From positions 1-50,991 of the IMG/VR virus record IMGVR_UViG_3300017971_000079: DNA of 50,991 nt. One strand, written 5' to 3'. Each line of letters begins with the position of its first letter. Positions within the stretch are counted from its first letter, which is position 1. Positions 8,276 to 26,892 of this stretch are shown piece after piece. Both the position numbers and the translations under genes were made by a program. The notes under the pieces are model-generated. The model was not told the origin of the DNA. It ran no database searches and was given only the letters and a program-made list of their open reading frames with translations. The stretch is from a virus. Its lineage: Duplodnaviria; Caudoviricetes.

Positions 8276-10780
8276 GTGAGAAGCTTGGGCTTCACCTACT
8301 ACGTCACCGTGCATACCAATGAAGGCGAGTTGGTTACTCGTTCATGGTCGACTTGGATTGAAGTTTTAATCAAACATCAAATACGAAAAGACAAGGACGG
8401 TCCCGCGCTTGTTTTTGGTTTCATACCCTCTCATCTACCCAGGTCTAAGCGCAACACCCGGCACGCGAACGCTCTTGTACTTGACCTCGACAATGTTTCC
8501 GAGGAGATGCTAGGCGAAGTGCTCGAGCGCTTGGCTCCTTATGAGTTCGTGGCTCACTCGACACACTCGCACTTCGAGGCGGTTCAAAAAGGGCTTTGGA
8601 AACTTCGCATCATTGCCCCGCTGGCGGAGCCCGTCGCGCAAACGGACTTCCCGAAGGTCTGGAAGGCGTGGAACGAATTCACGTTACATTCGACCGACCC
8701 GGCGACTAAAGATATTTCCCGCCTCTACTACCTCCCTTCTTCTCCCGACCCTTCCGCCGTCGTCTACCTCCACAACAAAGGCGAATGGTTGCATGCGGAG
8801 AAGCATCTGCCTCTCGAAGCCACTATCCATTCTCTCGCCGATTCCGCGATGTCGGACCTGGAAGGTATTCGACGCGCGCTCAAACGCGCCGAGGGCGTCG
8901 AAGAAAAAGACCGTGAGACACTTCGAGCTCTTGCGGAAGGCCGGCCCTTCGCCGAACCCGACAGCGGAGAACGTCACGTCAATATGCGTACGTTGACATG
9001 GTGGCTCGCACGCCGCGACTCGATGCTGTCCCGCTTGGACGTAGAGGGGCTCTTCCGCGCGTCCTTGACGGCGATGCAAGAACAGTCGCCGGATGCGCCC
9101 ACGATGGACGCCACCTGGTCCGCCTACGAAACCGCCGTCGAAAAGCTCGCCGAAACCAGACACCAAAAAGCACTCAAGGCTCAACGAGAAAATACCGAAG
9201 GCCCCTACTCCCACGAAGATATGCTCCGCATCGCGGAGAAGCAGTGCTGGAAACCCGAGGAGCTCGCGAGGCGCTGGGTGGTACAAAAAGACGGTGCCGC
9301 GTGGTTCCTCGACCACAACGGAGAATACCAAGGTCCGTTCGGACGCGACGACCACCTCATGGCGTGCCTACGGTTTCTCCCACGCACCGAGGCGAGGCTG
9401 GTCGAGATAACAAAAAACGGAGTTCGCAACCGACCGCCGGCGACCGTGATAGCGGAAGTCGGAAGCCTCGCTCAAAAAACGGTCTGTGACTTGTCCGCGC
9501 AGTTTACGCGCTACGACCCGGAGACGAGCACCTTGTACGAGGCCGTGTCCCCGATACGGCGAGACCTCGTACCGACGTATCACGACACAGTGGACGATTG
9601 GCTACGCGCGATAGGCGGAAAGCACTACGAGAAATTGTGCGACTGGCTCGCGGTAGCTCCCGACCTCGACCAGATGCTTTGCGCGATTTACTTCGACGGG
9701 CCAAAGGGTGCGGGCAAATCGATGTTTGCTCACGGTGTTGCGGCGCTTTGGTCGGAGACGGCGACTCCCGGTGACATCGAGCTCTTTCTCGGTGCGTTCA
9801 ACGATACGGTTGCGATGTGCCCCCTTGTGTTCGCTGATGAGGACATGCCGAAGCATCAGACCAGGGACGTAACCGCGAAGTTGAGAGAGGAGCTCGCGAC
9901 GACCTCGAGAATTCTCAAGAGAAAATTTTTGAAACCGTCGGAGATGCGGGGCGCGATTCGGCTCTGTCTTGCGGCGAACAATGAGCTCTTGATTGCCGTG
10001 AAGAAAGCGATGACTCCCAACGACCTTGACGCCTTCGCAGAACGGTTTTTGTACATCCGCATTCCCGACAGCGCTCAGGATTATTTTTCGGAGACGGGAA
10101 GGGAGGACATCCGCAACATGCTCACTCGGGGGATAGCTGAGCATGCCCTACACCTACAAGCGACTCGCAAGATACAGAACTCCGGGAGCCGGTTCGCCGT
10201 CGGCGGCGACGTGCAAGAAATTCACCAGTTGTTTCTGACGAGCGGGCACTGGAACGGTTTGGTTTGCGAGTGGTTGGTCAAGTACCTCATGAACCCGTTG
10301 GCATACAATAACGAGAGCAACAATGCGGGTCTCGTGAGGTGTCTCTCTGACGAGGGAATGTTACTTGCGAACCCGCAAGGGCTCTCCGACAACTGGACCG
10401 CGTACATCAAAAGCGGTGTCCCGCCGTCAACTCCCGAGATTGCGACGGCGCTTCGGTCGCTGTCGGTGCCCGTGCGCGCGCAAGACGGCAGCGAGAAGCA
10501 GCAGGTGCAAAGACGCTGGCAAGGGCGCCATCACCGATACTCGGTGGTCAATATCAATGCGCTGCTCGCGTGGAGCCGTCGCAGTAATATCGGCGACCCG
10601 GCGAGCATGCTGTTCGCGCTCGGTGTCGAGGCGACGGAAGCGCAGCTCGGTCTCGGTGATGGCGACGTGCATGAGGACGGAGATGCGCCCGACAACGTGA
10701 CATTGATGCGGAGGCGCGCGCCCTCGCGCGTGCGCGAAGACGGCGGGTTAGACTACGGAGACAAGGAGGAAGAGAGATGA
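8276..10780 (+). CDS. Primase-helicase (AEP/PrimPol-type N-terminus, SF3-type NTPase)
   Basis: LDLD, HSTHSH, KLRIIAPL, DISRLYYLP primase motifs; Walker A GPKGAGKS, VFADE, AANN. Confidence 0.88.
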   Translation: MRSLGFTYYVTVHTNEGELVTRSWSTWIEVLIKHQIRKDKDGPALVFGFIPSHLPRSKRNTRHANALVLDLDNVSEEMLGEVLERLAPYEFVAHSTHSHFEAVQKGLWKLRIIAPLAEPVAQTDFPKVWKAWNEFTLHSTDPATKDISRLYYLPSSPDPSAVVYLHNKGEWLHAEKHLPLEATIHSLADSAMSDLEGIRRALKRAEGVEEKDRETLRALAEGRPFAEPDSGERHVNMRTLTWWLARRDSMLSRLDVEGLFRASLTAMQEQSPDAPTMDATWSAYETAVEKLAETRHQKALKAQRENTEGPYSHEDMLRIAEKQCWKPEELARRWVVQKDGAAWFLDHNGEYQGPFGRDDHLMACLRFLPRTEARLVEITKNGVRNRPPATVIAEVGSLAQKTVCDLSAQFTRYDPETSTLYEAVSPIRRDLVPTYHDTVDDWLRAIGGKHYEKLCDWLAVAPDLDQMLCAIYFDGPKGAGKSMFAHGVAALWSETATPGDIELFLGAFNDTVAMCPLVFADEDMPKHQTRDVTAKLREELATTSRILKRKFLKPSEMRGAIRLCLAANNELLIAVKKAMTPNDLDAFAERFLYIRIPDSAQDYFSETGREDIRNMLTRGIAEHALHLQATRKIQNSGSRFAVGGDVQEIHQLFLTSGHWNGLVCEWLVKYLMNPLAYNNESNNAGLVRCLSDEGMLLANPQGLSDNWTAYIKSGVPPSTPEIATALRSLSVPVRAQDGSEKQQVQRRWQGRHHRYSVVNINALLAWSRRSNIGDPASMLFALGVEATEAQLGLGDGDVHEDGDAPDNVTLMRRRAPSRVREDGGLDYGDKEEER

Positions 10781-11529
10781 GCTCATTTTCTCAGGCAGTT
10801 TGGAAGAGCGCGGGCTGTCCCACAGCTCCCGGCCGCGAACCGACTTCTGCCGCTGGAGCATGTGCGGTTTGCGGGGAAACGTGTGACGGAGGCTTGGTCC
10901 CCCGCAAGATCGCGCTGCCCGCGAGCTTCGCCAACTACGACATGTTGCGAGGGCCTTCGTCGGCGGGGGTCTGTGTCGCCTGCGCGTGGGCGATGGCGGG
11001 ACGTCCGCCCGACGGCTTGCGCATGTGGACGGTTGTAGCAGGCAAGGGGGCCGGAGAATGGAGCCGCGAGTACGTTGTCGGCCCGCAGCTCGGGCAAGAC
11101 GCCGTCGCTATTCACGGCAGCGACCACTCCCAGGTATTGCGGATGTTGCTCGACCCACCCGACGCTGAGTGGGGAGTTGCGCTTGCAGACAGCGGCAAGC
11201 TCCATGTCGTTCCGTGGGGTCGGTTGAACGCGACACAAGCACAGTGGACGGTTCGGCTCGAAGCGCTGGATGTCGTGGCGGAGGCCGGAAGATTTCGAGA
11301 GGTAGTGAGAGCCGCGGCGAAGTTACTGGCTGCGGGTTTTCTGCGGTCGCACATTGCGGAGTGCGATACCAGCCCTGCGTTGCTCAATAAGTGTGGGGCC
11401 GCGGTGTGGCGAGAGAACATCGAGACAATGAAAAAGTACGGCCGGGGGGGAGCAGGAAGACTGGCGTTGTTCTTACTCGGTCAATCGGCAAGGAAAAAAA
11501 CAAAGGAGGTCTGGAATGAGTGGTGTTGA
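10777..11529 (+). CDS. csf1: Type IV CRISPR-associated large subunit, Csf1 (Cas8-like)
   Basis: CAVCG...CVACAW zinc motifs, LLDPP, SGKLH; first gene of a coupled csf cluster. Confidence 0.72.
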   Translation: MSSFSQAVWKSAGCPTAPGREPTSAAGACAVCGETCDGGLVPRKIALPASFANYDMLRGPSSAGVCVACAWAMAGRPPDGLRMWTVVAGKGAGEWSREYVVGPQLGQDAVAIHGSDHSQVLRMLLDPPDAEWGVALADSGKLHVVPWGRLNATQAQWTVRLEALDVVAEAGRFREVVRAAAKLLAAGFLRSHIAECDTSPALLNKCGAAVWRENIETMKKYGRGGAGRLALFLLGQSARKKTKEVWNEWC

Positions 11530-11887
11530 GAACGACGCTGCTATCACCGACGTTGCGGTGGAATTCGCGGCGGAAATCATGGGAGCGGTCAACAAGGACG
11601 TGGTGAAGCCGCGGGACTGGTGGTCGAGATGCCGAGCTGCGCTCGAAGCGGCGGCGTCGGCGTCCGAGACGTGGGCGCAGTTCGTTTCGAGGTTCGGACA
11701 GAAGATGCAGATAGAGAGCATTCCCTCCGAGATCGCGACAGACGTGGCATTGCTCGAAGCGCATCTGATAGAAAACAAATGGTGGCCGCGGTTCCGCTAT
11801 CTCGTGCAACGAGATGCGTTGTACATCTCCGCGATGGCCCAAGTCCGGCGCAAAGAGCGCTTCGGGAAAAAAGCGAAGGGAGAGTGA
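11516..11887 (+). CDS. cas11: Small helical subunit (Cas11-like) of type IV-B
   Basis: 123-aa helical-looking protein between csf1 and csf2, the usual IV-B position. Confidence 0.6.
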   Translation: MSGVENDAAITDVAVEFAAEIMGAVNKDVVKPRDWWSRCRAALEAAASASETWAQFVSRFGQKMQIESIPSEIATDVALLEAHLIENKWWPRFRYLVQRDALYISAMAQVRRKERFGKKAKGE

Positions 11888-11888
11888 C

Positions 11889-12746
11889 ATGGAATTTTCA
11901 ACGATAGAAGTACGAGCTAAAGCTCTCGACCCGATTCATCATGGCGCGGGCACGGCCGGGAACACGTCGCTTCTCAGGGTGCAAGAGGTGTTGTTGCCGG
12001 ATGGTGAAATGGCGAGGGTTCCGTTTGTCAGCGGAAACTCAATCAAGCATCGGCTACGAGAGGCGATGGTCCACCACGCTGTCAACGTGCTGGATGTGCC
12101 GGATCACTCGATTTCGACAGCAGTAGTCAACCTGCTCTATTCGGGTGGCGCGTTGACGGCGACAGGGGCGAACGTAGATCTGGCGCTCCATCGGGAATTT
12201 CAGCGGCTTTGGCCCGCTCTCGGGTTGTGCGGCTACGCGGCTGGCAACACGATGGTCCAGAGCAAGCTTGCGGTGTCGCACTGGCATCTGGTCTGCTCCG
12301 AGAACTTCTGGCGTCTGCCGACCGACCTTGCGGCGCACAAGATGTCCGAGATGAGCGCGGCGGCGTTGAGGAGCAGCGATTTCGGTACGCGAATGTCTGC
12401 GGCGACGCGTGCGGGAGTGCGAGGGAAGATCGTCGAAGGTGAAGAGCCTGGGGAGTCGGGACAGATGATTTACGACTTCGAAACCATCTCGGCGGGGGCG
12501 CTGCTCTACGGGTCGATTCGCATCACGAACGCGACCGAGATGGAGCGCGCGGCGCTGGCGGCGGGTATCGCGACGTTGCAGGCGAAAGAAAAACACGTCT
12601 GGCAGATAGCGGCAAAGACGAGTGTAGGGTTCGGGCGCTGTCGTGTGAAGCTGCGAGGGTTGCCGGTCGCGGACGTGGAAAATTACGAAGAGCATTTGCG
12701 GGCGAATCGGGACGCGGCGTTGGCAATTCTCGACAAGGTGATGTGA
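11889..12746 (+). CDS. csf2: Type IV backbone subunit Csf2 (Cas7 family)
   Basis: PIHHG, VPFVSGNSIKHRLR, LLYSGG, QMIYDFETISAGA, C-terminal G-loop AKTSVGFGR. Confidence 0.85.
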   Translation: MEFSTIEVRAKALDPIHHGAGTAGNTSLLRVQEVLLPDGEMARVPFVSGNSIKHRLREAMVHHAVNVLDVPDHSISTAVVNLLYSGGALTATGANVDLALHREFQRLWPALGLCGYAAGNTMVQSKLAVSHWHLVCSENFWRLPTDLAAHKMSEMSAAALRSSDFGTRMSAATRAGVRGKIVEGEEPGESGQMIYDFETISAGALLYGSIRITNATEMERAALAAGIATLQAKEKHVWQIAAKTSVGFGRCRVKLRGLPVADVENYEEHLRANRDAALAILDKVM

Positions 12747-13414
12747 TGGATGTCTTCGAGGTTGTCGCGACGATGGAGGAGCCCGTGTGTGTCGTCAATC
12801 CGGTAGTGCATCTCGATGGCGTGCTGGCGTTCGGGGCGTACTTGCAACTGGACGAGGAACGCAGGAGGGCGCTGCCTCCGATATCGTCGGAGTGGGCGGA
12901 AGATTTCGAGCTGCCGTTGGCGCGGTGGGAGCAGGAGGCGCGCGTACCGGAGCCGTTCGACGAGCGGTTATGTTCGCGGCCGGGGGTGGTGTGGGGGTGG
13001 AAGTGCTCGGCGGCGCGATTCGAGCAGGCGCTAGAGGGCGTCCACGAGGTGCGGAAGAAACCGGCACAAGCGGAGATGCTCAGGTATGCGGATGCAAAAA
13101 AGCTGAAGACCGGTGCGGGACCGGTGCGAGCGAGAGACCGGAAGTTCCCGACGGTGTTTGCAAGGGAGATTCGGTGGTGTGTCGAGGGAGACGCAGAGCG
13201 GGTGTTGGCGCTGGCTCGGGGTGTACCTGGTATCGGAAAACTCGTCGGTCATGGGATGGGACGCGTGGCGAGTTGGCGTGCGGAGGAAGCGAGAGAAGAT
13301 TGGAGCATGTGGAGGACGTTGCCGGATGCGGAGTCGCCGTTGTTGTACGGAATCAGGGCACCGTATCATCATCCGTCGCGGCAAGTGTTCGCGAAAGAGC
13401 CTGAGGGGCTTTGA
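12746..13414 (+). CDS. csf3: Type IV Csf3 (Cas5 family)
   Basis: HLDGVLA, LPL, WKCS, G-loop IGKLVGHGMGRV..W, RAPYHH. Confidence 0.82.
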   Translation: MDVFEVVATMEEPVCVVNPVVHLDGVLAFGAYLQLDEERRRALPPISSEWAEDFELPLARWEQEARVPEPFDERLCSRPGVVWGWKCSAARFEQALEGVHEVRKKPAQAEMLRYADAKKLKTGAGPVRARDRKFPTVFAREIRWCVEGDAERVLALARGVPGIGKLVGHGMGRVASWRAEEAREDWSMWRTLPDAESPLLYGIRAPYHHPSRQVFAKEPEGL

Positions 13415-14643
13415 TGCGTGCATGCTTCGTTGAGGCGTGTGACGATAAAGATGCCGGATCTATCGGCGCGTATTACGTAGCGACGCATGCGAGGCGCGCT
13501 GGGCACCAGATCGATTTCAGCCGTACAACACAAAACGGGTACGATGTCGAATTGATTTCCGTGCATCATTGTATGGACTTTCTGCGATTAGCGCACCTGC
13601 CGAAGCGAGCGCCTTTGCGGATAGTGGGAGGCCACGCGATGCTGTCAAACCCGCGCCCGGTAATTCCGTTTGCCGATATCGTTTTTCGTGGCGAAGCTGA
13701 AAGCTGGATAGGCGGTGCGCTTGATGCCCTGGACGGTGAAAAAGATGCTGCGTGTTTGCAGGGGGTGCCGGGGGTTATCGTGACTAAAAATTGGATTAAG
13801 GGGGCTCATCTGCCGGACGTTGTTTTTGAAAGACCGTTGCCTTCAAATCCGCCCTATCTGAATTGGGCGGGGACGAAATCGGCGGCATGGTACTTGGAAA
13901 TAGCGAGGGGGTGCCCCTTTCGTTGTGCGTTTTGTGAGCTAGGCAACAGCACCCCCTTTCGCATTTATCCCAAAGAACACGTTTTCGAAGCGCTTAAAGG
14001 ATTAGACACAACCCTTGCACGTAAGATCAACTTGTTCGCGCCGGACGAAACTAGTCACCCTGCTTACACGGAGATATACGAGCACCTGGAACGAAAAGGG
14101 TATAGTGCCGCGTTTTCGTCGATGCGTATCGAATCCGTCATGAAGCGCCATCCGAAGCTCAAACCTAATGTACTAATTCGCGTGGGCATCGATGGGCTTT
14201 CAGAACGTGTGCGCACGGAAGTCAACAAGCCCATTACGGATGATCAGATAGTAGAGTACTTCAAAGAGTGGACCGAGAGAGGCCATGTCAATTTCAAAAC
14301 TTTTTTTATCTTTAGTTATCCTGGGGAAACCGAAGCTGATTTCCGAGGCTTCGAGATTTTGATGCGGAGAGTTTTCCAAATCCGATTGCGGAAAAACTGT
14401 TCGTTGCGGATCAAATGGACTCCATTTATCCCGCAACCATGCACGCCCCTTGGCTCCAGCCTGCCGCGCTACAATCGAGACATTGCCGCGCGTATCCGCA
14501 GGTGGCATGCGTTGCACAAGGAGCCCGTGCGCACCCCGGGATGGTGGGTGACATGTGACGGGATGATGTCTGAGAAAGCGCACGCGCTTCAGTGCCGATT
14601 GACGCATGGCGATGAGGAGACGCTGATAGATGCGCGTCCATAA
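13414..14643 (+). CDS. Radical SAM protein with probable cobalamin-binding-like N-terminal domain
   Basis: EIARGCPFRCAFC (CxxxCxxC), IVGGH, GEAE, FIPQPCTP; TGATG-coupled to csf3. Confidence 0.85.
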   Translation: MRACFVEACDDKDAGSIGAYYVATHARRAGHQIDFSRTTQNGYDVELISVHHCMDFLRLAHLPKRAPLRIVGGHAMLSNPRPVIPFADIVFRGEAESWIGGALDALDGEKDAACLQGVPGVIVTKNWIKGAHLPDVVFERPLPSNPPYLNWAGTKSAAWYLEIARGCPFRCAFCELGNSTPFRIYPKEHVFEALKGLDTTLARKINLFAPDETSHPAYTEIYEHLERKGYSAAFSSMRIESVMKRHPKLKPNVLIRVGIDGLSERVRTEVNKPITDDQIVEYFKEWTERGHVNFKTFFIFSYPGETEADFRGFEILMRRVFQIRLRKNCSLRIKWTPFIPQPCTPLGSSLPRYNRDIAARIRRWHALHKEPVRTPGWWVTCDGMMSEKAHALQCRLTHGDEETLIDARP

Positions 14644-15907: not shown

Positions 15908-15969
15908 TGGCCGAAACGGGGCTCCAGCCCCGTCGCCGCAGGGTGCCGCCTGCGGCCTGATGAGGCAGG
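15908..15969 (+). ncRNA. Hammerhead ribozyme (type II permutation)
   Basis: GAAA 15913-16; stem III ACGGGGC/GCCCCGT; GTC 15932-34; stem I GCCGCAGG/CCTGCGGC; CTGATGA 15957-63; open stem II GCC/GGC. Confidence 0.85.
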
Positions 15970-15987
15970 CAAAAAAAGGAGGACAAA

Positions 15988-16203
15988 ATGAAGGCACACG
16001 ACGTGGGAATCATTTGGGACGGAACAAACGAGGGGTGGTATCTGAGATACTCCACGGACGAGCAGAATGCTCTAGACTCCTCGATGCACATGCCTGACGA
16101 CGCACACCTGAGCGATGGCGAGCTGTACGCGGCCGCGCTCACGGAGGCGTGCTACTGCGGCATTGAGTTGCCGACCATCGAGGACATCAGCATCGAGCGA
16201 TAA
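15988..16203 (+). CDS. Hypothetical acidic protein
   Basis: AGGAGG RBS, 71 aa. Confidence 0.7.
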   Translation: MKAHDVGIIWDGTNEGWYLRYSTDEQNALDSSMHMPDDAHLSDGELYAAALTEACYCGIELPTIEDISIER

Positions 16204-16246
16204 CCCCGACCGGTTTGCGCGGGTTCGACTCCCGCGCGGGGTCCCA
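16203..16246 (+). ncRNA. tRNA-like minihelix (acceptor stem, T-arm, CCA)
   Basis: ACCCCG/CGGGGT stacked on CGCGGG-TTCGACT-CCCGCG, then C-CCA; intergenic. Confidence 0.65.
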
Positions 16247-16267
16247 AGGCAAACAACGGAGGCAAAA

Positions 16268-16867
16268 ATGTGCAACCCAGCAACATTCCTGATTACGCGG
16301 TCCCGTGTGTTGTGGTCTGTTGACCACGACTCGCACGAAGAACTCATTCGAGAGGCCGGGCTCAGCGACGGCCTGCGCGGCGGAGATTTCGTGCGGGCCG
16401 AGATTTCCCCGCCCGACAACGACTACTCGCTACCGCTGGGGCAGTGGGTGTATCGCACAGACCAGGACACCGTGCCCGACTGGTACGACGAGCGCGAGGC
16501 CGAGATCGCGGCCTGCGCCGAGCTGCCCGCATGGGCAGAGCACCATCTCGTCCGCGATGGCCAGGTCGAGGTGCGCGACGGGCAGAGCCGCGTGCTGCTC
16601 GGTGATGCGCGCGCCGAAGTTCACGGCGGCGTGGTGCGGTGCCACGGCGAGTCCCGCGCCGAGGTGCACGGCGGCTGGGTGGGCTGCTTCGGCCAATCCC
16701 GCGCCGAGGTGCACGGCGGCGAGGTGCGGTGCCACGGCGAGTCCCGCGCCGAGGTGCACGGCGGCGTGGTGGAGTGCTACGGCGAGTCCCACGCCGAGGT
16801 GCACGGCGGCGTGGTGCGGTGCGACGATCAGGCGACAATGGATGACAGGAGGCCCCCCAATGTGTAA
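16268..16867 (+). CDS. Hypothetical protein with C-terminal 15-aa tandem repeats (beta-helix-like)
   Basis: GGAGG RBS before ATG 16268; five AEVHGGxVxC-containing units. Confidence 0.75.
   Translation: MCNPATFLITRSRVLWSVDHDSHEELIREAGLSDGLRGGDFVRAEISPPDNDYSLPLGQWVYRTDQDTVPDWYDEREAEIAACAELPAWAEHHLVRDGQVEVRDGQSRVLLGDARAEVHGGVVRCHGESRAEVHGGWVGCFGQSRAEVHGGEVRCHGESRAEVHGGVVECYGESHAEVHGGVVRCDDQATMDDRRPPNV
16610..16825 (+). repeat. 45-nt coding tandem repeat, about 5 copies
   Basis: Recurrent gccgaggtgcacggcggc at 45-nt spacing. Confidence 0.9.
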
Positions 16868-22198: not shown

Positions 22199-22340
22199 GG
22201 TCGCGCTCAAGCGACGCGAAGCGAAACTGCGAGAGCTGAGAAACGAGCGACGGCGCGCCGAAAACCTCGAACGGTTGCGCGAGCGCGTAGGCCCCGCGCG
22301 TCCGCTTGACGGCAATCCCTACGACGGAGACCCGTCATGA
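22074..22340 (+). CDS. Basic hypothetical protein
   Basis: AAGGAG RBS; ATGA coupling downstream. Confidence 0.55.
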   Translation: MTPVQLAIEAVAGMIRALAEWRRRKREARFKRKREKAMKEIEVALKRREAKLRELRNERRRAENLERLRERVGPARPLDGNPYDGDPS

Positions 22341-22528
22341 AATGGATGGTAGCGATGCTCCAAGACGACAGCGGATTGCTCGACCGGAAGCGCGTTCAGG
22401 AGCTCGTGGTCTGGGACGATACCGAAGTCATCAAGGTCAAGAGCAAGCAAGGCGAAGTTTTGATAAAGCTCGTGAGGTCGGATTTGTTCTTGACAGATTT
22501 TGCCAAATCAGATAAACAGGGCAGATAA
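22337..22528 (+). CDS. Hypothetical protein
   Basis: ATGA coupling. Confidence 0.5.
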   Translation: MKWMVAMLQDDSGLLDRKRVQELVVWDDTEVIKVKSKQGEVLIKLVRSDLFLTDFAKSDKQGR

Positions 22529-22583
22529 ACCAAGCGCGCTTTCGAGCGCCAAGCGCCGCACGGCGGCGGAGAGGGAAACGAAA

Positions 22584-23171
22584 ATGAACAAACCAAACTG
22601 GCCATTCCCAAATCAAAGTGAAGACCCCCACGTGAGCATGCCGCAAGGGCAGGCACCCTACCCCGCGCAACCTTCGCAGGGAGGCGGCCGCGACCCCTTC
22701 CAGCGCACCGCCGAAGCCGACCCCAACCAGAGGAGCGTATACCCGGTGCCGGGGGTGTACCCCGCACTCATGGCCGACTCGCTCAAAATGATTCAGAGCC
22801 GCAAGGGCGAAGACCTGTTCGTCGCGGAGCTGGAGATACTCGACTCGCAGGTCGACGACCGCCCCGCCGGAACTCGGATGTCGTGGATTGTGAACTACAA
22901 GCACGACTCAGCACCCGGCAACGTCAAGGCGTTTTTCTGCGCGCTGATGAGCACGACCGAGGACCAGGTGACGGCCGATGCGCTTCGGTATGCCTGCGGA
23001 GTTCAGAACCCCTGTCAAGGGCGTCTTGTGAGACTCGAAGCGAGCAACACCAAGACGAGAGCGGGAGGGGACTTCACGCTTTGCAACTGGCAGGTGATAC
23101 CCGAGAACATGCAGGCGCAGGCGGGCGAGCTGCGCAAGCGCGCCGGGTTCGGCGCGGACATTCCGTTCTAG
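22584..23171 (+). CDS. Probable single-stranded DNA-binding protein
   Basis: C-terminal DIPF tail, beta-rich core, replication module context. Confidence 0.6.
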   Translation: MNKPNWPFPNQSEDPHVSMPQGQAPYPAQPSQGGGRDPFQRTAEADPNQRSVYPVPGVYPALMADSLKMIQSRKGEDLFVAELEILDSQVDDRPAGTRMSWIVNYKHDSAPGNVKAFFCALMSTTEDQVTADALRYACGVQNPCQGRLVRLEASNTKTRAGGDFTLCNWQVIPENMQAQAGELRKRAGFGADIPF

Positions 23172-23180
23172 GAGGTACAA

Positions 23181-23804
23181 ATGAAAATCAGAGGAACATT
23201 CAAGTGCGAAGTGCTCGGGACGGCAAGCGTCGACCCCGAGCTTCACGAGAAATTCATCGCAAGCAAGACCGCCGACAAAGAGAAGGTCAAAGAGGAACTG
23301 TCCGCGCTGCCGACCGAAGAAGCCATCGAGAACGCCGTGACCTGTTTTCCGCGTGGAGAAGAGGGTACGGACGGGCCGATTATGTTCGACTACCAGTTCA
23401 AGGGGTTTCTCAAAGAGGCCCTCGGTGTGCTGGTCGAGACGCAGAAGCGCGAGCTGAAGGGGCAGGGTGGAGGCAAGCTGTTGGTCAGTAAGTACACCCA
23501 CAAAAAAGTCGTCGACAACTACGTGTTCGTGTTTCCGCGAGAGATTCCCTTGGTGCTGCCCGAGGGCAAGGGAATCACGAAATGCACGCGGCCGTTGCGC
23601 GCGCAAACCATGCGGGGTGAGCGCGTGGCCCTGGCCACGTCCGAGCAGCTCCCGAGGGGCACGACGTTCGAACTGGAAATCAGACTCTTGCAAGAGTGCC
23701 TGGCTCCGTTGGTTGTTGAGTGTCTGAACTACGGCGCGCTCAAGGGGCTCGGCCAGTGGCGGAACAGTGGTAAGGGTAGGTTTGAATGGGAAGAGATTTT
23801 GTAG
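23181..23804 (+). CDS. Stand-alone RAMP/Cas7-like protein
   Basis: N-terminal strand with LG, P..FDYQFKGFLKEA helix, RPLRA..SE, C-terminal G-rich loop YGALKGLGQWRNSGKGRF; AGGAGG RBS. Confidence 0.72.
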   Translation: MKIRGTFKCEVLGTASVDPELHEKFIASKTADKEKVKEELSALPTEEAIENAVTCFPRGEEGTDGPIMFDYQFKGFLKEALGVLVETQKRELKGQGGGKLLVSKYTHKKVVDNYVFVFPREIPLVLPEGKGITKCTRPLRAQTMRGERVALATSEQLPRGTTFELEIRLLQECLAPLVVECLNYGALKGLGQWRNSGKGRFEWEEIL

Positions 23805-23807
23805 ACG

Positions 23808-24010
23808 CGCGAAGGCTGGGCTTCGCAAGGCGACGTGTCGTTTCGCAAGGGCGAAGGCGGCGCTCTGCAGGGCGACGCGCTGTTTCGCACGGGCGAAGGT
23901 CTGCGCGGCAGAGGCGGCGCTACGTGTCGAATCGCACGGCCCAGCAACGGCGACGAGGGGCGAGGTGGAGTCCGGCTATGCTTCGCAAAGACCTCGGAGT
24001 AATCCGAGGT
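23808..24010 (+). ncRNA. Candidate guide-RNA array: four ~41-42-nt units of nGY-NN pentamers plus a 3' GNRA hairpin
   Basis: 29 of 29 pentamers have G at position 2 and 27 of 29 have Y at position 3; each unit ends in (c/a)gca(a/c); hairpin ACCTCGGA-GTAA-TCCGAGGT at 23991-24010. Confidence 0.72.
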
Positions 24011-24082
24011 GCTGAGTTCTAAAACGAAAGGAGGGTCTTTCGCGGGTAACAGTTCCAAGGCCGGGGACCGGTCCCGGCCGAT

Positions 24083-24171
24083 GGGCGCGGCCGTCACGGC
24101 ATGGAGCGGTCAGAAATTTTCTAAATTGTCGAAGAGCTGACCGCCAGGGTTCGAATCCCGACGCGCCCCCA
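24083..24171 (+). ncRNA. Degenerate tRNA-like element
   Basis: GGGCGCG/CGCGCCC acceptor then CCA; GGG-TTCGAAT-CCC T-loop; extra 8-bp stem GCGGTCAG/CTGACCGC; no canonical D or anticodon arm. Confidence 0.55.
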
Positions 24172-24183
24172 AGGAGGAGTCGC

Positions 24184-26133
24184 TTGAAGCCCGTTCTCGT
24201 CATCGACACCGAGACGCACTTGTTCTCCCCTGGGAACATGGCGCCCAAAATCGTCTGCGCGTCGTACGCGTTCGGCGACCAGTCCGGTCTCCTGGTGACA
24301 CCCGGACAAATCGAAAACCTGTTCCGCGATGCTCTCACCGAAGCGAAGAACGGGACGCTTCTCATTGTGGGACATTACGTCGCTTATGACATGGCGTGCG
24401 TCTGCGCCAACTTCCCTGCGCTGCTCCCTCTCGTGTTCGAGGCATACGATGCGGACGGTATCACCGACACGGCGAACCGTGAGCGACTACTCGACATCGC
24501 CGAAGGGACGTTTCGGATTGCCGTCTCCGCCGATGGCGACACAACAAAAACAGAGTACTCACTTGCCGACTGCGTCAAGTACAAATTCGGCGAGCATCTG
24601 GAAAAGGAAAATACGTGGAGGCTACGATACGCCGAGCTCGACGGCGTGCCTCTCGACCAATGGCCCGAGGAGGCCAAGAGCTACGCCATCAAAGACGCGA
24701 CCTCGTGCTACCGGCTCTACCTCGCACAAGAGGAGAACAAGCGACGGCTGAACTACTACACTCCGACCGAGTTCGAAGAGTCGCGCGCGGACTTCGCGCT
24801 CAAGCTCATGACAAACCACGGCATCATCACCGACCAACCGCGCGTGCTTTCGTTTTGGAACGAAACGGTCGAGAGGATGGACGTACTCGCCGACCAACTT
24901 GTCGGATGCGGACTCGCTCGGCTGAACAAGAAAGGCAAGCAAACCACCTTGTTCAAAATCGACACGGTCGAGACCGACCGCGCGGAGCTGCCGGAAATCT
25001 CTCAAGACCTGAAACGCACCCGCCAGCTCGTGAAGGACACGTTCCCCGGCGACCCTCCGTTGACTCCGAAAGGTTCTATCTCGACCGCCGCCGAAGTGCT
25101 GAACCGGTGTCGGTCGAAAGACCTCCGCGCTTTGGTCGAGTACAAGGGTCACGAGAAAAACACCTCGACGTTTTTGTCAAAGCTCTTCCGCCCTCTCGTC
25201 CATGCCGACTTCCGAGGCATCGGCGCGGCGTCTGACCGGACGTCATGCTCGAAGCCAAATTTGCAGCAGCTCCCACGTGCGCCGGGGTTTCGCGAGTGTT
25301 TTGTGCCTCGACCGGGGAACGTGTTCTGCGCGTGCGACTTCGATACTCAAGAGATGCGGACGCTCGCGCAGTCGTGTCTCGACATCTGCGGTCGGTCGAA
25401 GTTGGCGGAGCGCTATCAAGCGGACGCATGGTTCGACCCTCACCTAGAATTCGCGGCGGGGCTTCTGGGGCTCGACGTTGCCGCCGCGAAGGCGCGCAAG
25501 GAAGTGGGGGACAAAGAGGTCAAGAACATGCGGCAGGCGGCTAAGGCCGCGAACTTCGGCTATCCCGGAGGGCTCGGACCGAACGGGTTCGTGAAGTACG
25601 CTTGCAACTCTTGGGGCCTCAAGATGTCAGAGCTTCGGGCAAAGGAACTGAAGGACGCATGGATGCATCAATGGCCCGAGATGTTCACGTACTTCGAGCA
25701 TGTGAGGAACATTGTCGGGTGGAAGCGGGAGTCGCTCGGAACGATTCAGATTCCTCAGTCCGGTTTCGTGCGGGGAGCGGTCAAGTACACCGACGCGTGC
25801 AACTCGTATTTTCAGACGTTGGCCGCGCACTGCTCGAAGCGGGCGTTGTGGGAAGTGACGAAGCGCTGTTTCGTGGAGGAGACTTCGGCACTGTACGGGT
25901 CGAGACCCGTGTGGTTTGTGCATGACGAAGTGGGGCTCGAAGTACCGGAAGAGCGGGGGTGGTTAGCGGCGATTGAAATGCCGGTGATTATGGTTGAAGC
26001 GATGAATGTGTACACGCCGCAGGTACCTAGCAACGCAAGCGCGGTGCTGATGGAGAGATGGTCAAAAGCGGCGGAAGCCGTGAAAGACGAGAAAGGGAGG
26101 TTGGTACCGTGGAGAGAAAAAACGAACTGCTAG
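24184..26133 (+). CDS. polA: Family A DNA polymerase with 3'-5' exonuclease
   Basis: IDTET, YD, YAIKDA exonuclease motifs; PNLQQLPR, CDFDTQEMR, RQAAKAANFG, VHDEV. Confidence 0.95.
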   Translation: MKPVLVIDTETHLFSPGNMAPKIVCASYAFGDQSGLLVTPGQIENLFRDALTEAKNGTLLIVGHYVAYDMACVCANFPALLPLVFEAYDADGITDTANRERLLDIAEGTFRIAVSADGDTTKTEYSLADCVKYKFGEHLEKENTWRLRYAELDGVPLDQWPEEAKSYAIKDATSCYRLYLAQEENKRRLNYYTPTEFEESRADFALKLMTNHGIITDQPRVLSFWNETVERMDVLADQLVGCGLARLNKKGKQTTLFKIDTVETDRAELPEISQDLKRTRQLVKDTFPGDPPLTPKGSISTAAEVLNRCRSKDLRALVEYKGHEKNTSTFLSKLFRPLVHADFRGIGAASDRTSCSKPNLQQLPRAPGFRECFVPRPGNVFCACDFDTQEMRTLAQSCLDICGRSKLAERYQADAWFDPHLEFAAGLLGLDVAAAKARKEVGDKEVKNMRQAAKAANFGYPGGLGPNGFVKYACNSWGLKMSELRAKELKDAWMHQWPEMFTYFEHVRNIVGWKRESLGTIQIPQSGFVRGAVKYTDACNSYFQTLAAHCSKRALWEVTKRCFVEETSALYGSRPVWFVHDEVGLEVPEERGWLAAIEMPVIMVEAMNVYTPQVPSNASAVLMERWSKAAEAVKDEKGRLVPWREKTNC

Positions 26134-26138
26134 AAGCC

Positions 26139-26399
26139 GTGGCATGCCATCGTTGCGGCGAGAGAATCGAAGAGGTCGAAATGCCCTACACGAAGGAACG
26201 CCTCTGCAAACCCTGCTTCCGTAGAGGGCTTTACTGGCGGCCGGGCGCGCCTCCTTTGGGAAACTTTGTGCAATATCCGGGATTCTTTCGTCTCGAATGC
26301 GGCACCAAAGCAGTTGCCCCCAGTCTCTCAAAGACATGGTGGCAAGCAGGTTGTGACCCCTATCGCGATGGAGAACCTACGTATGGAAGGAGTGGTTAA
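26139..26399 (+). CDS. Small Cys-containing hypothetical protein
   Basis: CHRC..CKPC; start uncertain. Confidence 0.4.
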   Translation: MACHRCGERIEEVEMPYTKERLCKPCFRRGLYWRPGAPPLGNFVQYPGFFRLECGTKAVAPSLSKTWWQAGCDPYRDGEPTYGRSG

Positions 26400-26892
26400 C
26401 GTGAACAAGGAGAACATATTTCAGGAATTGCTAAGACATATCGAAGGACATCAATGTGACCACAAAACACCGCTCAGAGCTCACTTGGCATGGGAGTCTC
26501 TGTGTGCTGGATATGGACAAAATCCTGATGACTTTTTTGAGACAATGCCAGCGGAGGGAAATCAGACTATAGAAATTTCGGATCTCACTTTCTGCTCGAT
26601 CTGTGAACACCATCTTCTCCCCTTCTGGGGTATAGCATCGATTTCCTACAAACCACAGAAATTGATTCTGGGGTTGAGCAAGGCTGGCAGAGTTCTTGAA
26701 GTATTTGCGCGACGCATCCAGATACAGGAGCGAATCAACCAGCAAGTAGCTGAATATCTCTTTGAAAAGTTATCTCCGAAATGGGTCGAAGTTGTGACTG
26801 AGGCATTCCATCTATGCATGAGCTCCCGCGGAGTAATGCAAGTGTCGGCAAAAACAAAAGTGATTCAAAGAATAGCAAGAATAGCAAAATGA
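26382..26892 (+). CDS. folE: GTP cyclohydrolase I
   Basis: SICEHHLLPF, GLSK, RRIQIQER, HLCMSSRG; start is 26382 or GTG 26401. Confidence 0.9.

What the first reader, a model, noticed from the sequence alone, without database searches (positions are those of the whole stretch)
23181..24010. Solo Cas7/RAMP-like gene plus a pentamer-periodic non-coding array: candidate non-CRISPR RNA-guided system
Seen: a 207-aa protein with a RAMP-type C-terminal G-loop (GLGQWRNSGKGRF) sits between the SSB and PolA genes with no cas neighbours. Three nt after its stop an array begins: U1 cgcgaa-ggctg-ggctt-cgcaa-ggcga-cgtgt-cgttt-cgcaa-g (23808-49); U2 ggcgaa-ggcgg-cgctc-tgcag-ggcga-cgcgc-tgttt-cgcac-g (23850-91); a 15-nt stub; U3 ggcaga-ggcgg-cgcta-cgtgt-cgaat-cgcac-ggccc-agcaa-c (23907-48); U4 ggcga-cgagg-ggcga-ggtgg-agtcc-ggcta-tgctt-cgcaa (23949-88). 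All 29 pentamers have G at position 2, 27 have Y at position 3, positions 4-5 vary, and a GNRA hairpin closes the array. Established: Cas7-family proteins polymerise on RNA with a fixed nucleotide step. Inference: one subunit binds each pentamer through nGY and the variable bases form an interrupted guide, giving about 4 guides. From unverified memory this resembles a recently reported phage RAMP system with GGY/NN RNAs ('VIPR'); here position 1 is relaxed (G/C/T/A), so it may be a distinct variant.
Basis: partly seen in the sequence, partly recalled or inferred. Interest (0 to 1): 0.95.

Follow-up and report, generated by a model that had tools for sequence, protein, structure and literature searches.

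The report
Phage VIPR guide-RNA system
A complete 51-kb phage genome carries a lone Cas7-like protein followed directly by four short guide units built of five-letter repeats; this is a genuine example of the VIPR RNA-guided systems first published in 2026, so it is real but of an already described kind.

Summary

The tract is far beyond chance, z 8.7 against all other 181-nt windows of this genome. The protein family is large (3237 clusters). Pentamer runs flank 177 of 240 homologues drawn from three collections, on the gene strand.

A profile of the family aligns over nearly its full length with the family of the tested SUSP1 Vipr (hhalign 83.5%, E 8e-6).

A 91%-identical relative keeps unit 1 letter for letter. 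Its other units are replaced or changed at positions 1, 4 and 5.

This is therefore a VIPR system (bioRxiv 10.64898/2026.04.26.720920). It belongs to a divergent clade with YNNNG-type repeats and tail-less units of 5-9 pentamers offset by one base. The preprint names both features: alternative repeat consensi and "staggered" arrays.

- No target was found.
- No RNA data exist.
- The SSB label is unverified.
- A type IV-like csf operon lies 9.7 kb upstream.

This scan has noted VIPR-like loci on other DNA before (743 notes in at least 492 genomes).

Verdict: new member of a known kind.

The parts
23170..23175 (+). Ribosome-binding site AGGAGG of the vipr-like gene, overlapping the stop codon of the upstream ORF
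   Evidence: Read directly. No sigma-70-like promoter lies in 22300-24400, so the gene is probably co-transcribed with the replication module (inference).
23181..23804 (+). vipr-like gene: a 207-aa single-domain RAMP (Cas7-like) protein. G-loop G189-F201 (GLGQWRNSGKGRF); predicted thumb beta-hairpin at residues 133-157.
23808..23813 (+). Leader pentamer cGCga plus one extra base, before unit 1
   Evidence: Parse. Identical in the 91%-identical relative L092.
23814..23849 (+). Guide unit 1: 7 NGYNN pentamers (first GGC.., last CGCAA) plus a 1-nt offset base
   Evidence: The whole 42-nt stretch 23808-23849 is 100% identical in L092, while the flanking coding DNA differs.
23850..23855 (+). Single pentamer gGCga plus one extra base between units 1 and 2 (a doubled boundary)
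   Evidence: Absent from L092, which has a 6-nt gap here.
23856..23891 (+). Guide unit 2: 7 pentamers plus an offset base. A diverged duplicate of unit 1.
   Evidence: TRF reports a 42-nt period with 81% matches. Parse. Differences from unit 1 fall at positions 1, 3 (Y to Y), 4 and 5, never at position 2 (read).
23892..23912 (+). Stub: four pentamers (one degenerate) plus an offset base
   Evidence: It did not pass my unit criterion of at least 5 good pentamers.
23913..23948 (+). Guide unit 3: 7 pentamers (one degenerate, cgaat) plus an offset base
   Evidence: Its counterpart in L092 differs at 8 letters, all at positions 1, 4 or 5.
23949..23988 (+). Guide unit 4: 8 pentamers (one degenerate, cgagg), ending CGCAA
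23990..24010 (+). Hairpin closing the array: 7-bp stem, GUAA loop, no U-run after it
   Evidence: Not called a terminator by the scan.
24011..24183 (+). Structured spacer before polA: two hairpins and a degenerate tRNA-like element ending ...CCCCCA. A possible RNA-processing signal, but not a conserved part of the system.
   Evidence: Fold. ARAGORN and Rfam find nothing here. In L092 further pentamer units occupy this space.

Best explanation
The locus is a VIPR-type RNA-guided system of a phage.

The 207-aa protein is a Vipr-like RAMP. The 180-nt tract behind its stop codon is probably transcribed with it. It would give four short tail-less vrRNA units (7, 7, 7 and 8 pentamers) plus a stub.

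By analogy with the solved SUSP1 complex, one protomer binds each pentamer. The conserved G2 and Y3 are held by the G-loop (W193, R194) and helix 1. Positions 4-5 are presented for base pairing to double-stranded DNA, with one target base skipped per repeat. Binding represses a competing mobile element.

Each unit starts with GGC and ends with nGCAA, followed by one extra base that shifts the register. The likely effect is that a filament stops there and the next one starts.

Shown here: the fold, the family, the conserved gene-array linkage, the unit architecture and the pattern of variation. Inferred: transcription, processing, binding, the pairing rule and the biological target.
For: Fold.
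- The AF2 model matches Csm3 and type VII Cas7: Foldseek E 2.2e-5, 19 hits at E<=0.001.
- The family profile hits type VII Cas7 (E 2.2e-5) and Csm4 (E 0.001) in the PDB through the G-loop.

Relation to a tested Vipr.
- hhalign of 55 family members against 32 members of the SUSP1 Vipr family gives Prob 83.5%, E 8.3e-6 over 182 columns.
- The G-loops align as G-x-G-[D/Q]-W-R...G-R-F.

Linkage of gene and array.
- Loci with at least one run of 5 or more perfect NGYNN pentamers within 600 nt of the homologue: 65 of 80 IMG/VR, 60 of 80 metagenome and 52 of 80 genome loci.
- Run density is 0.49-3.2 per kb in the flanks, against 0.009-0.124 per kb elsewhere in the same loci and 0-0.04 inside the gene.
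- Runs are richer on the gene strand in 129 loci, on the opposite strand in 16, and tied in 37, of 241.

Unit architecture (299 units from 73 of 80 IMG/VR loci).
- The first pentamer has G at position 1 in 96% of units; internal pentamers have it in 28%.
- The last pentamer has A at positions 4 and 5 in about 70%.
- One extra base follows each unit. Units hold 5-9 pentamers, most often 6.
- All four window units fit this pattern.

Variation.
- Among 144 alignable locus pairs, mismatch rates at positions 1 to 5 are 12.0, 1.3, 3.9, 10.2 and 14.5%.
- The 91%-identical relative L092 has unit 1 identical, about nine units in all, and a counterpart of unit 3 that differs only at positions 1, 4 and 5.

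Residue logic (inference).
- SUSP1 D177, which reads G1, is Q192 here; Q is found in 212 of the 213 homologues where the motif could be read, out of 241.
- SUSP1 H17 falls in a segment that this family lacks.
- W178 and R179, which hold G2 and Y3, are conserved as W193 and R194.
- This fits a free position 1 with fixed positions 2 and 3.

Context.
- The window is a complete viral genome with terminal repeats.
- No self-target has 1 mismatch or fewer under the one-base-skip rule, as the preprint reports for its own systems.
Against: - There is no direct evidence that the tract is transcribed, processed or bound.
- The family profile does not find SUSP1 Vipr directly, either in the phage record at E<=10 or among the 7 PDB hits at E<=10. 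hhalign against the single SUSP1 sequence gave only Prob 4%. By sequence the family is about as close to CRISPR type VII Cas7 as to the tested Vipr.
- 63 of 240 homologue loci show no perfect 5-pentamer run in their flanks.
- My parser rewards G at position 2 and Y at position 3, so the low mismatch rates at those two positions are partly built in.
- The units are shorter (7-8 pentamers) than the tested type II vrRNAs (9-16) and have no 3' tail.
- No accessory (vap) gene was recognised.
- No natural target was found.
- I could not see the preprint's supplements, so its type assignment for this clade is unknown to me.
Confidence: 0.85

Rival explanations
1. The protein does bind the pentamer RNA, but the RNA is not a DNA-targeting guide. 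The array would be an assembly scaffold, a decoy or sponge for a rival's Vipr, or an autoregulatory 3' UTR element of the vipr mRNA.
For: No target was found for any of the four units. 219 family guides scored no better than shuffled guides on 2.3 Mb of held DNA under any skip rule. Unit 1 is perfectly conserved between two phages whose other units differ, which could equally mark a structural or regulatory role. A 2026 preprint describes vrRNAs used as decoys by satellites (abstract seen).
Against: Positions 4 and 5 vary freely between relatives while the scaffold stays fixed. That is the pattern expected of guides and reported for tested VIPR systems. The target searches were badly under-powered: 14-16 informative bases, exact matches only, host unknown.
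Confidence: 0.07
2. The array serves the type IV-B-like Csf complex encoded 9.7 kb upstream in the same phage (csf1, csf2/Cas7, csf3/Cas5 at 10777-13414, which has no CRISPR array), rather than the 207-aa protein.
For: NCBIfam hits appear in the canonical gene order: Csf1 3.6e-8, Csf2 5.1e-7, Csf3 1.6e-9. No CRISPR-like array appears anywhere in the genome. Recalled, not from a call: type IV-B complexes are known to lack their own arrays.
Against: The pentamer tracts travel with the 207-aa family, immediately beside it, in 177 of 240 loci from three collections. They start 0-11 nt after its stop in most of the 57 loci that have a downstream array. All three csf hits are far below the curated cut-offs. 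Cas7 backbones of class 1 systems use a 6-nt step, not 5 (preprint text). I did not test whether the other loci lack csf genes.
Confidence: 0.03
3. The tract is not an RNA gene. It would be either a DNA-level repeat of the replication module (iterons or an origin between a putative SSB and PolA) or a translated low-complexity ORF.
For: It sits inside the replication module. All three + frames and one - frame are open across it: ORFs 23767-24015, 23786-24022, 23835-24002 and 23729-24097.
Against: A period of 5 with +1 offsets is incompatible with conserved coding. The relative L092 differs by gaps that are not multiples of 3 and by whole-unit replacement. The tracts follow the RAMP gene into unrelated genomic contexts and lie upstream or downstream of it, with a strand bias towards the gene strand. 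Open frames are expected in a stop-poor GC-rich repeat.
Confidence: 0.03

Closest known systems
VIPR systems with non-canonical repeats and 'staggered' vrRNA arrays (types other than II in bioRxiv 10.64898/2026.04.26.720920)
   Same: Shared features: a lone small RAMP gene in a virus, and an adjacent array of pentamers. The consensus here, NGYNN, is YNNNG in the preprint's register, one of the alternative consensi it lists. Successive units are offset by one base. This matches the legend of its fig. [quoted passage not shown]
   Different: I could not see the figures, tables or data files. I therefore cannot say whether this clade is one of the seven types, or which. The preprint states that staggered arrays, unlike ribozyme arrays and single vrRNAs, were not confirmed by small-RNA sequencing. 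No hammerhead lies in or next to this array.
Type II VIPR of Escherichia phage SUSP1 (Vipr, vap1, four vrRNAs; PDB 36pp)
   Same: Both have a protein of about 200 aa with RRM core, thumb and G-loop. The profiles align nearly end to end. W and R of the G-loop are conserved. Both have pentamer repeats on the gene strand flanking the gene and lie in a phage genome.
   Different: SUSP1 repeats are strict GGYNN, with 9-16 per vrRNA and a conserved structured 3' tail. Here position 1 is free except in the first pentamer, units have 7-8 pentamers, there is no tail, and no vap gene was found. D177 is Q192 and the H17 segment is missing. Sequence identity is about 19% in the profile alignment.
CRISPR class 1 backbone proteins: Csm3 (type III-A) and Cas7 of type VII
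   Different: There are no partner cas genes beside it and no CRISPR repeat-spacer array. The RNA step is 5 nt with two or three variable letters, instead of 6 nt with five paired bases.
Type IV-B CRISPR-Cas (array-less Csf complexes)
   Same: It is an array-less RAMP-based module on a mobile element, and a csf-like operon is present in this same phage.
   Different: The 207-aa protein matches no Csf model and is 9.7 kb away from that operon. Its own family carries its own pentamer arrays.

Membership tests
VIPR system (Vipr + vrRNA) | Homology to an experimentally characterised Vipr | tested here: met
   Profile-profile hhalign of A3 against A2 (SUSP1 family): Prob 83.5%, E 8.3e-6, 182 columns. 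Weaker tests failed: the profile against the SUSP1 record gave no hit at E<=10; the profile against the single sequence gave Prob 4%; the profile against the PDB did not list 36pp.
VIPR system (Vipr + vrRNA) | Reachable by the preprint's PSI-BLAST from UniProt X1U2U4 and listed among its 667 systems | not testable with these tools
   No PSI-BLAST on NR is available here, and I did not see the supplements. A family member is in NCBI nr (MCP4544769.1). The SUSP1-family hit from a marine sediment metagenome proved to be X0TDZ5, not X1U2U4.
VIPR system (Vipr + vrRNA) | Tandem pentanucleotide repeats (GGY/NN or a related consensus, at least 4 units) next to vipr | tested here: met
   29 pentamers, 29 with G2 and 27 with Y3. 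Score z 8.7 against this genome. Present beside homologues in 177 of 240 loci.
VIPR system (Vipr + vrRNA) | Scaffold letters conserved, NN letters hypervariable between relatives | tested here: met
   Mismatch rates 12.0, 1.3, 3.9, 10.2 and 14.5% at positions 1-5 over 144 locus pairs (positions 2-3 are partly biased by the parser). The window against L092 shows changes at positions 1, 4 and 5 only in the shared unit, with the other units replaced.
VIPR system (Vipr + vrRNA) | Minimal non-CRISPR locus: no cas genes or CRISPR array beside it | tested here: met
   The neighbours are an unassigned DUF669-like ORF and PolA. No CRISPR-like repeats occur in the genome. Caveat: a csf-like operon lies at 10777-13414.
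VIPR system (Vipr + vrRNA) | Accessory vap gene in an operon with vipr (typical, not universal: six vap families for seven types) | tested here: inconclusive
   No ORF cluster shared between the window's neighbours and the 240 other loci. The upstream ORF has no family assignment.
VIPR system (Vipr + vrRNA) | vrRNAs expressed, co-purify with Vipr, and direct dsDNA binding by the one-base-skip rule | not testable with these tools
   This needs experiments.
Type II VIPR (SUSP1 / P. fulva clades) | Strict GGY scaffold, 9-16 repeats per vrRNA and a conserved structured 3' tail after each repeat tract | tested here: not met
   G at position 1 in only 27% of non-first pentamers. Window units have 7-8 pentamers and abut one another without tails.
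CRISPR-Cas type III / VII effector module | Cas7 encoded with partner effector genes and a repeat-spacer array | tested here: not met
   The adjacent genes are not cas genes. TRF finds no CRISPR-like array in the 50,991-base genome.

The most novel reading that the evidence does not exclude
In this clade the two residues that read G1 in SUSP1 Vipr are lost (D177 becomes Q, and the H17 segment is absent). Position 1 would then have become a third informative letter. Guides would be read as N4-N5-N1' triplets, with no skipped target base: a codon-by-codon contiguous code. They would be carried by tail-less mini-guides of 5n+1 nt, whose one-base offset alone sets the guide boundaries.

Support is weak.
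- For: position 1 varies as much as positions 4 and 5.
- For: stop-codon words are depleted in the N4-N5-N1' frame, 74 observed against 90.2 expected (P 0.002). After collapsing related units this falls to 67 against 77, z -2.0.
- Against: the G+C of position 1 does not track genome G+C more steeply than positions 4 and 5 do (slope 0.52 against 0.78 and 0.61).
Probability: 0.1. Interest if true: 0.65.

Novelty: new member of a known kind. Interest (0 to 1): 0.3.

Why it matters
The result confirms that a reader without tools can spot a VIPR locus from sequence alone. It adds a clean, complete-genome example from a sediment/seawater phage with 59% G+C.

It also describes one very large Vipr clade: 3237 protein clusters, found in viruses and in MAGs of many bacterial phyla and one Asgard archaeon. 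In this clade the guides are short, tail-less and offset by one base.

The preprint states that this array style was not confirmed by small-RNA sequencing. The clade is therefore a good place to ask how vrRNA boundaries are set without tails or ribozymes, and whether a free position 1 changes the recognition code.

As a discovery it is not new: the class, its skip rule and its non-canonical repeat consensi are in print.

Tried and rejected
Target search. In the 80 loci returned, the skipped bases matched position 1 of the guide 0, 1, 2, 3 or 4 times out of 6 in 21, 26, 27, 5 and 1 hits. That is chance level.

The same pattern for unit 4 (16 informative bases) gave 8 stretches.
- Six are one gene, a 201-aa ORF, in related contigs of 33-37% G+C.
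- One is an unrelated 344-aa ORF.
- One is out of frame.

The number is what chance predicts, and the G+C is far from this phage's 59%. I rejected these as targets.

Contiguous N4-N5-N1' words of units 1 and 4 gave 0 hits; this is uninformative. No self-target with 1 mismatch or fewer exists in the genome; the best is 2 of 14 mismatches at 288 on the minus strand.

219 family guides of 7 or more pentamers were tested against 2.3 Mb of held, array-masked DNA. Real and shuffled guides gave the same best-hit distributions under 0, 1, 2 and 3 skipped bases.

Expression. No RNA holder is listed for the stretch. The two holders are DNA runs that may be the source.

Oligomer. Complex prediction with three copies gave no verdict: score 0.29, mark 0.42. 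This counts neither for nor against.

Terminators. My impression that arrays end in intrinsic terminators (seen in L007, L012 and L079) did not generalise. Only 2 of 57 downstream arrays had a hairpin plus T-run by my script.

D-versus-Q test within the family. This was not possible because Q is essentially invariant.

Other checks that led nowhere.
- A hammerhead inside the array: none.
- tRNA or tmRNA: none.
The nearest cellular-bin homologues are Chloroflexota MAGs at 56-63% identity, which is only a hint.

Papers. For 10.64898/2026.04.26.720920 I read the outline, sections 4, 10, 18 and 20, and found passages including supplementary figure legends. For ...720927 I read the outline and section 5. 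For 10.64898/2026.10.15.759431 I read the outline, section 17 and found passages. I made no call for supplements. Type tables (data S4, table S3, figs S16-S18) may already place this clade.
Full report
WHAT IS THERE. The window is a complete viral genome of 50,991 bases with direct terminal repeats and 59% G+C. Gene 23181-23804 (+) encodes 207 aa and has an AGGAGG site overlapping the stop of the upstream ORF. Its stop is TAG at 23802-23804, and three bases later the tract 23808-23988 begins.

27 have C or T at position 3; the exceptions are cgaat and cgagg. Tandem Repeats Finder sees a 42-nt period over 23809-23899, with 2.2 copies and 81% matches.

A dynamic-programming parse rewards NGYNN pentamers and charges for single-base slips. 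It scores the tract 46. The 4066 other 181-nt windows on both strands of this genome average -23.3, sd 8.0. Their maximum of 20 lies in a 45-nt coding repeat near 16.6 kb. 1000 shuffles of the tract reach at most 5. A hairpin with a 7-bp stem and GUAA loop closes the tract at 23990-24010.

THE PROTEIN. It matches no Pfam, NCBIfam or PDB sequence directly, and only a chance-level PHROG. The family is nevertheless large:
- 3237 clusters at E<=0.001 among 3513 candidates in the 90%-identity collection.
- 1479 representatives at 50% identity.
- 177 metagenome stretches.
- 155 stretches in species-representative genomes, spanning Clostridia, Bacteroidota, Coriobacteriia, Chloroflexota, Planctomycetota, Saccharibacteria and one Promethearchaeota MAG.

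WHAT IS KNOWN. The first preprint (10.64898/2026.04.26.720920) describes mostly viral loci with a lone ancestral RAMP, Vipr. Its vrRNAs are made of GGY/NN pentamers, and the NN letters pair with double-stranded DNA while one target base per repeat is skipped.

The preprint reports seven types. It lists alternative repeat consensi NNNGG, YNNNG and NNNNG. Its array styles include 'staggered arrays with overlapping vrRNAs', hammerhead-interspersed arrays and single vrRNAs. NGYNN here is YNNNG in that register.

The structural preprint (…720927, section 5) assigns the contacts as follows:
- G1 to H17 and D177.
- G2 to R138 and W178.
- Y3 to E71, M72, R179 and neighbouring residues.

LINK TO A TESTED VIPR. 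I fetched phage phiSUSP1. Its GGYNN tracts lie at 27.9 and 29.2 kb on the minus strand. Its 195-aa Vipr lies between them and is identical to PDB 36pp.

Direct profile searches do not connect the two families. Profile against profile they align nearly end to end: Prob 83.5%, E 8.3e-6 over 182 columns.

In that alignment W178 and R179 correspond to the conserved W193 and R194. D177 corresponds to Q192. H17 lies in a segment that this family lacks. E71 and M72 correspond to the invariant Y71 and Q72. Q is found in 212 of the 213 homologues where the motif could be read, out of 241. The contacts for the two fixed letters are thus kept and those for the relaxed letter are lost. This is an inference from a 19%-identity alignment.

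LINK BETWEEN GENE AND ARRAY. I counted runs of at least five consecutive perfect NGYNN pentamers within 600 nt of the homologue. They occur in 65 of 80 IMG/VR loci, 60 of 80 metagenome loci and 52 of 80 genome loci. Densities are 0.49-3.2 per kb in the flanks, 0.009-0.124 per kb elsewhere in the loci, and 0-0.04 per kb inside the gene. 63 of the 240 loci show none by this strict count.

The tracts favour the gene strand: 129 loci have more there, 16 have more on the opposite strand, and 37 are tied, of 241. In 57 loci the array begins within 40 nt of the stop, mostly within 0-11 nt.

ARCHITECTURE OF THE CLADE. I took 299 units from 73 of the 80 IMG/VR loci.
- The first pentamer has G at position 1 in 96% of units, against 28% in internal pentamers. 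The parser does not reward this letter.
- The last pentamer reads nGCAA, with A about 70% at both positions 4 and 5.
- One extra base then shifts the register.
- Units hold 5-9 pentamers, most often 6.

The window has four such units at 23814 (7 pentamers), 23856 (7), 23913 (7) and 23949 (8), plus a four-pentamer stub and two single gGCga pentamers at doubled boundaries. There are no tails between units and no ribozyme here. This fits the legend of the preprint's fig. [quoted passage not shown] I could not see the figure. The preprint says only the ribozyme and single-vrRNA styles were confirmed by small-RNA sequencing.

VARIATION. Across 144 alignable locus pairs, which are not independent, mismatch rates at positions 1-5 are 12.0, 1.3, 3.9, 10.2 and 14.5%. 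The low values at positions 2 and 3 are partly imposed by the parser. The near-equality of position 1 with positions 4 and 5 is not.

The most telling comparison is L092, a metagenome contig whose protein is 91% identical and which has the same polA neighbour.
- The first 42 nt of the array are identical letter for letter.
- The window's second unit and stub are absent.
- The counterpart of unit 3 differs at 8 letters, all at positions 1, 4 or 5.
- The array then continues with different units, about nine in all, up to polA. They replace the window's 170-nt structured spacer.

This is the behaviour of a guide array on a conserved scaffold.

MECHANISM. By homology and by the conserved anatomy, the most likely reading runs as follows. 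The tract is transcribed with the gene; no sigma-70-like promoter lies in 22300-24400. Protomers polymerise one per pentamer, holding G2 and Y3. Each one-base offset ends a filament. The exposed letters direct binding to foreign DNA, and the outcome is repression. Each step after 'conserved anatomy' is inferred. I put this reading at 0.85.

WHAT I COULD NOT SHOW. No target emerged. None is expected to be provable with 14-16 informative bases, exact-match scans and an unknown host. No self-target with 1 mismatch or fewer exists. No RNA run is listed. No vap gene is recognisable.

The bolder idea is that position 1 is a third read letter. Its only support is a weak depletion of stop words in the N4-N5-N1' frame: 74 against 90.2, P 0.002. 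After collapsing related units this is 67 against 77, z -2.0. Its composition does not behave like a wobble position.

'SSB' is unverified. There is no family hit, only a DUF669-like feature lead at 0.93 and a ...DIPF end. PolA is confirmed. 'No cas neighbours' is true of the adjacent genes. The phage nevertheless carries a csf1, csf2, csf3-like operon followed by a radical SAM gene at 10777-14643.

VERDICT. This is a real, tidy VIPR system: a new member of a kind published in 2026, from a clade whose array style the preprint names but did not test. Earlier notes of this scan reach the same class on other DNA. 743 notes in at least 492 genomes hold the words, and one follow-up on a related protein gave the same closest-known.

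Noticed in passing
window 10777-14643: An operon with sub-threshold but ordered hits to type IV Csf1 (3.6e-8), Csf2/Cas7 (5.1e-7) and Csf3/Cas5 (1.6e-9). A B12-binding radical SAM gene follows it, and it lies directly behind an 834-aa DUF5906-like (primase-type) gene. No CRISPR array is present in the genome. The phage therefore carries two different RAMP-based modules.
   Followed up: partly
window 15909-15974 (+): Type II hammerhead ribozyme, Rfam RF02276, 53.4 bits against a gathering score of 37, full length. It is 8 kb from the array and not part of it.
   Followed up: partly
window 16610-16826 (+): A 45-nt tandem repeat, 4.8 copies at 84% matches, inside ORF 16115-16867. It encodes 15-aa repeats of the form AEVHGGxVxCxGESR. 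It is the only other place in the genome with a raised pentamer score, but it is coding (period divisible by 3).
   Followed up: partly
window 24011-24183 (+): Two hairpins and a degenerate tRNA-like element (7-bp acceptor-like stem, TTCGAAT loop, ...CCCCCA end) lie between the array and the polA ribosome-binding site. ARAGORN and Rfam do not call it. The 91%-identical relative has more pentamer units here instead.
   Followed up: partly
window 26266-26892 (+): A GTP cyclohydrolase I (FolE) gene, Pfam 1.5e-40, lies just after polA. This hints at a 7-deazaguanine or queuosine-type DNA modification pathway in the phage.
   Followed up: no
window 22500-23171 (+): The upstream ORF ends in ...GADIPF and resembles DUF669 phage proteins by language-model features (0.93). 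It has no Pfam, PHROG or PDB sequence hit. A single-strand DNA-binding role is plausible but unproven.
   Followed up: partly
L311 and L313 (one MAG contig, JAGCAN010000001.1): Two separate homologues of the 207-aa protein lie 48 kb apart on one Oscillospiraceae contig.
   Followed up: no
L315, L295: Family members sit on contigs binned to a Promethearchaeota (Asgard) MAG and a Saccharibacteria MAG. The clade crosses domains or rides on viruses of very different hosts; the binning was not checked.
   Followed up: no
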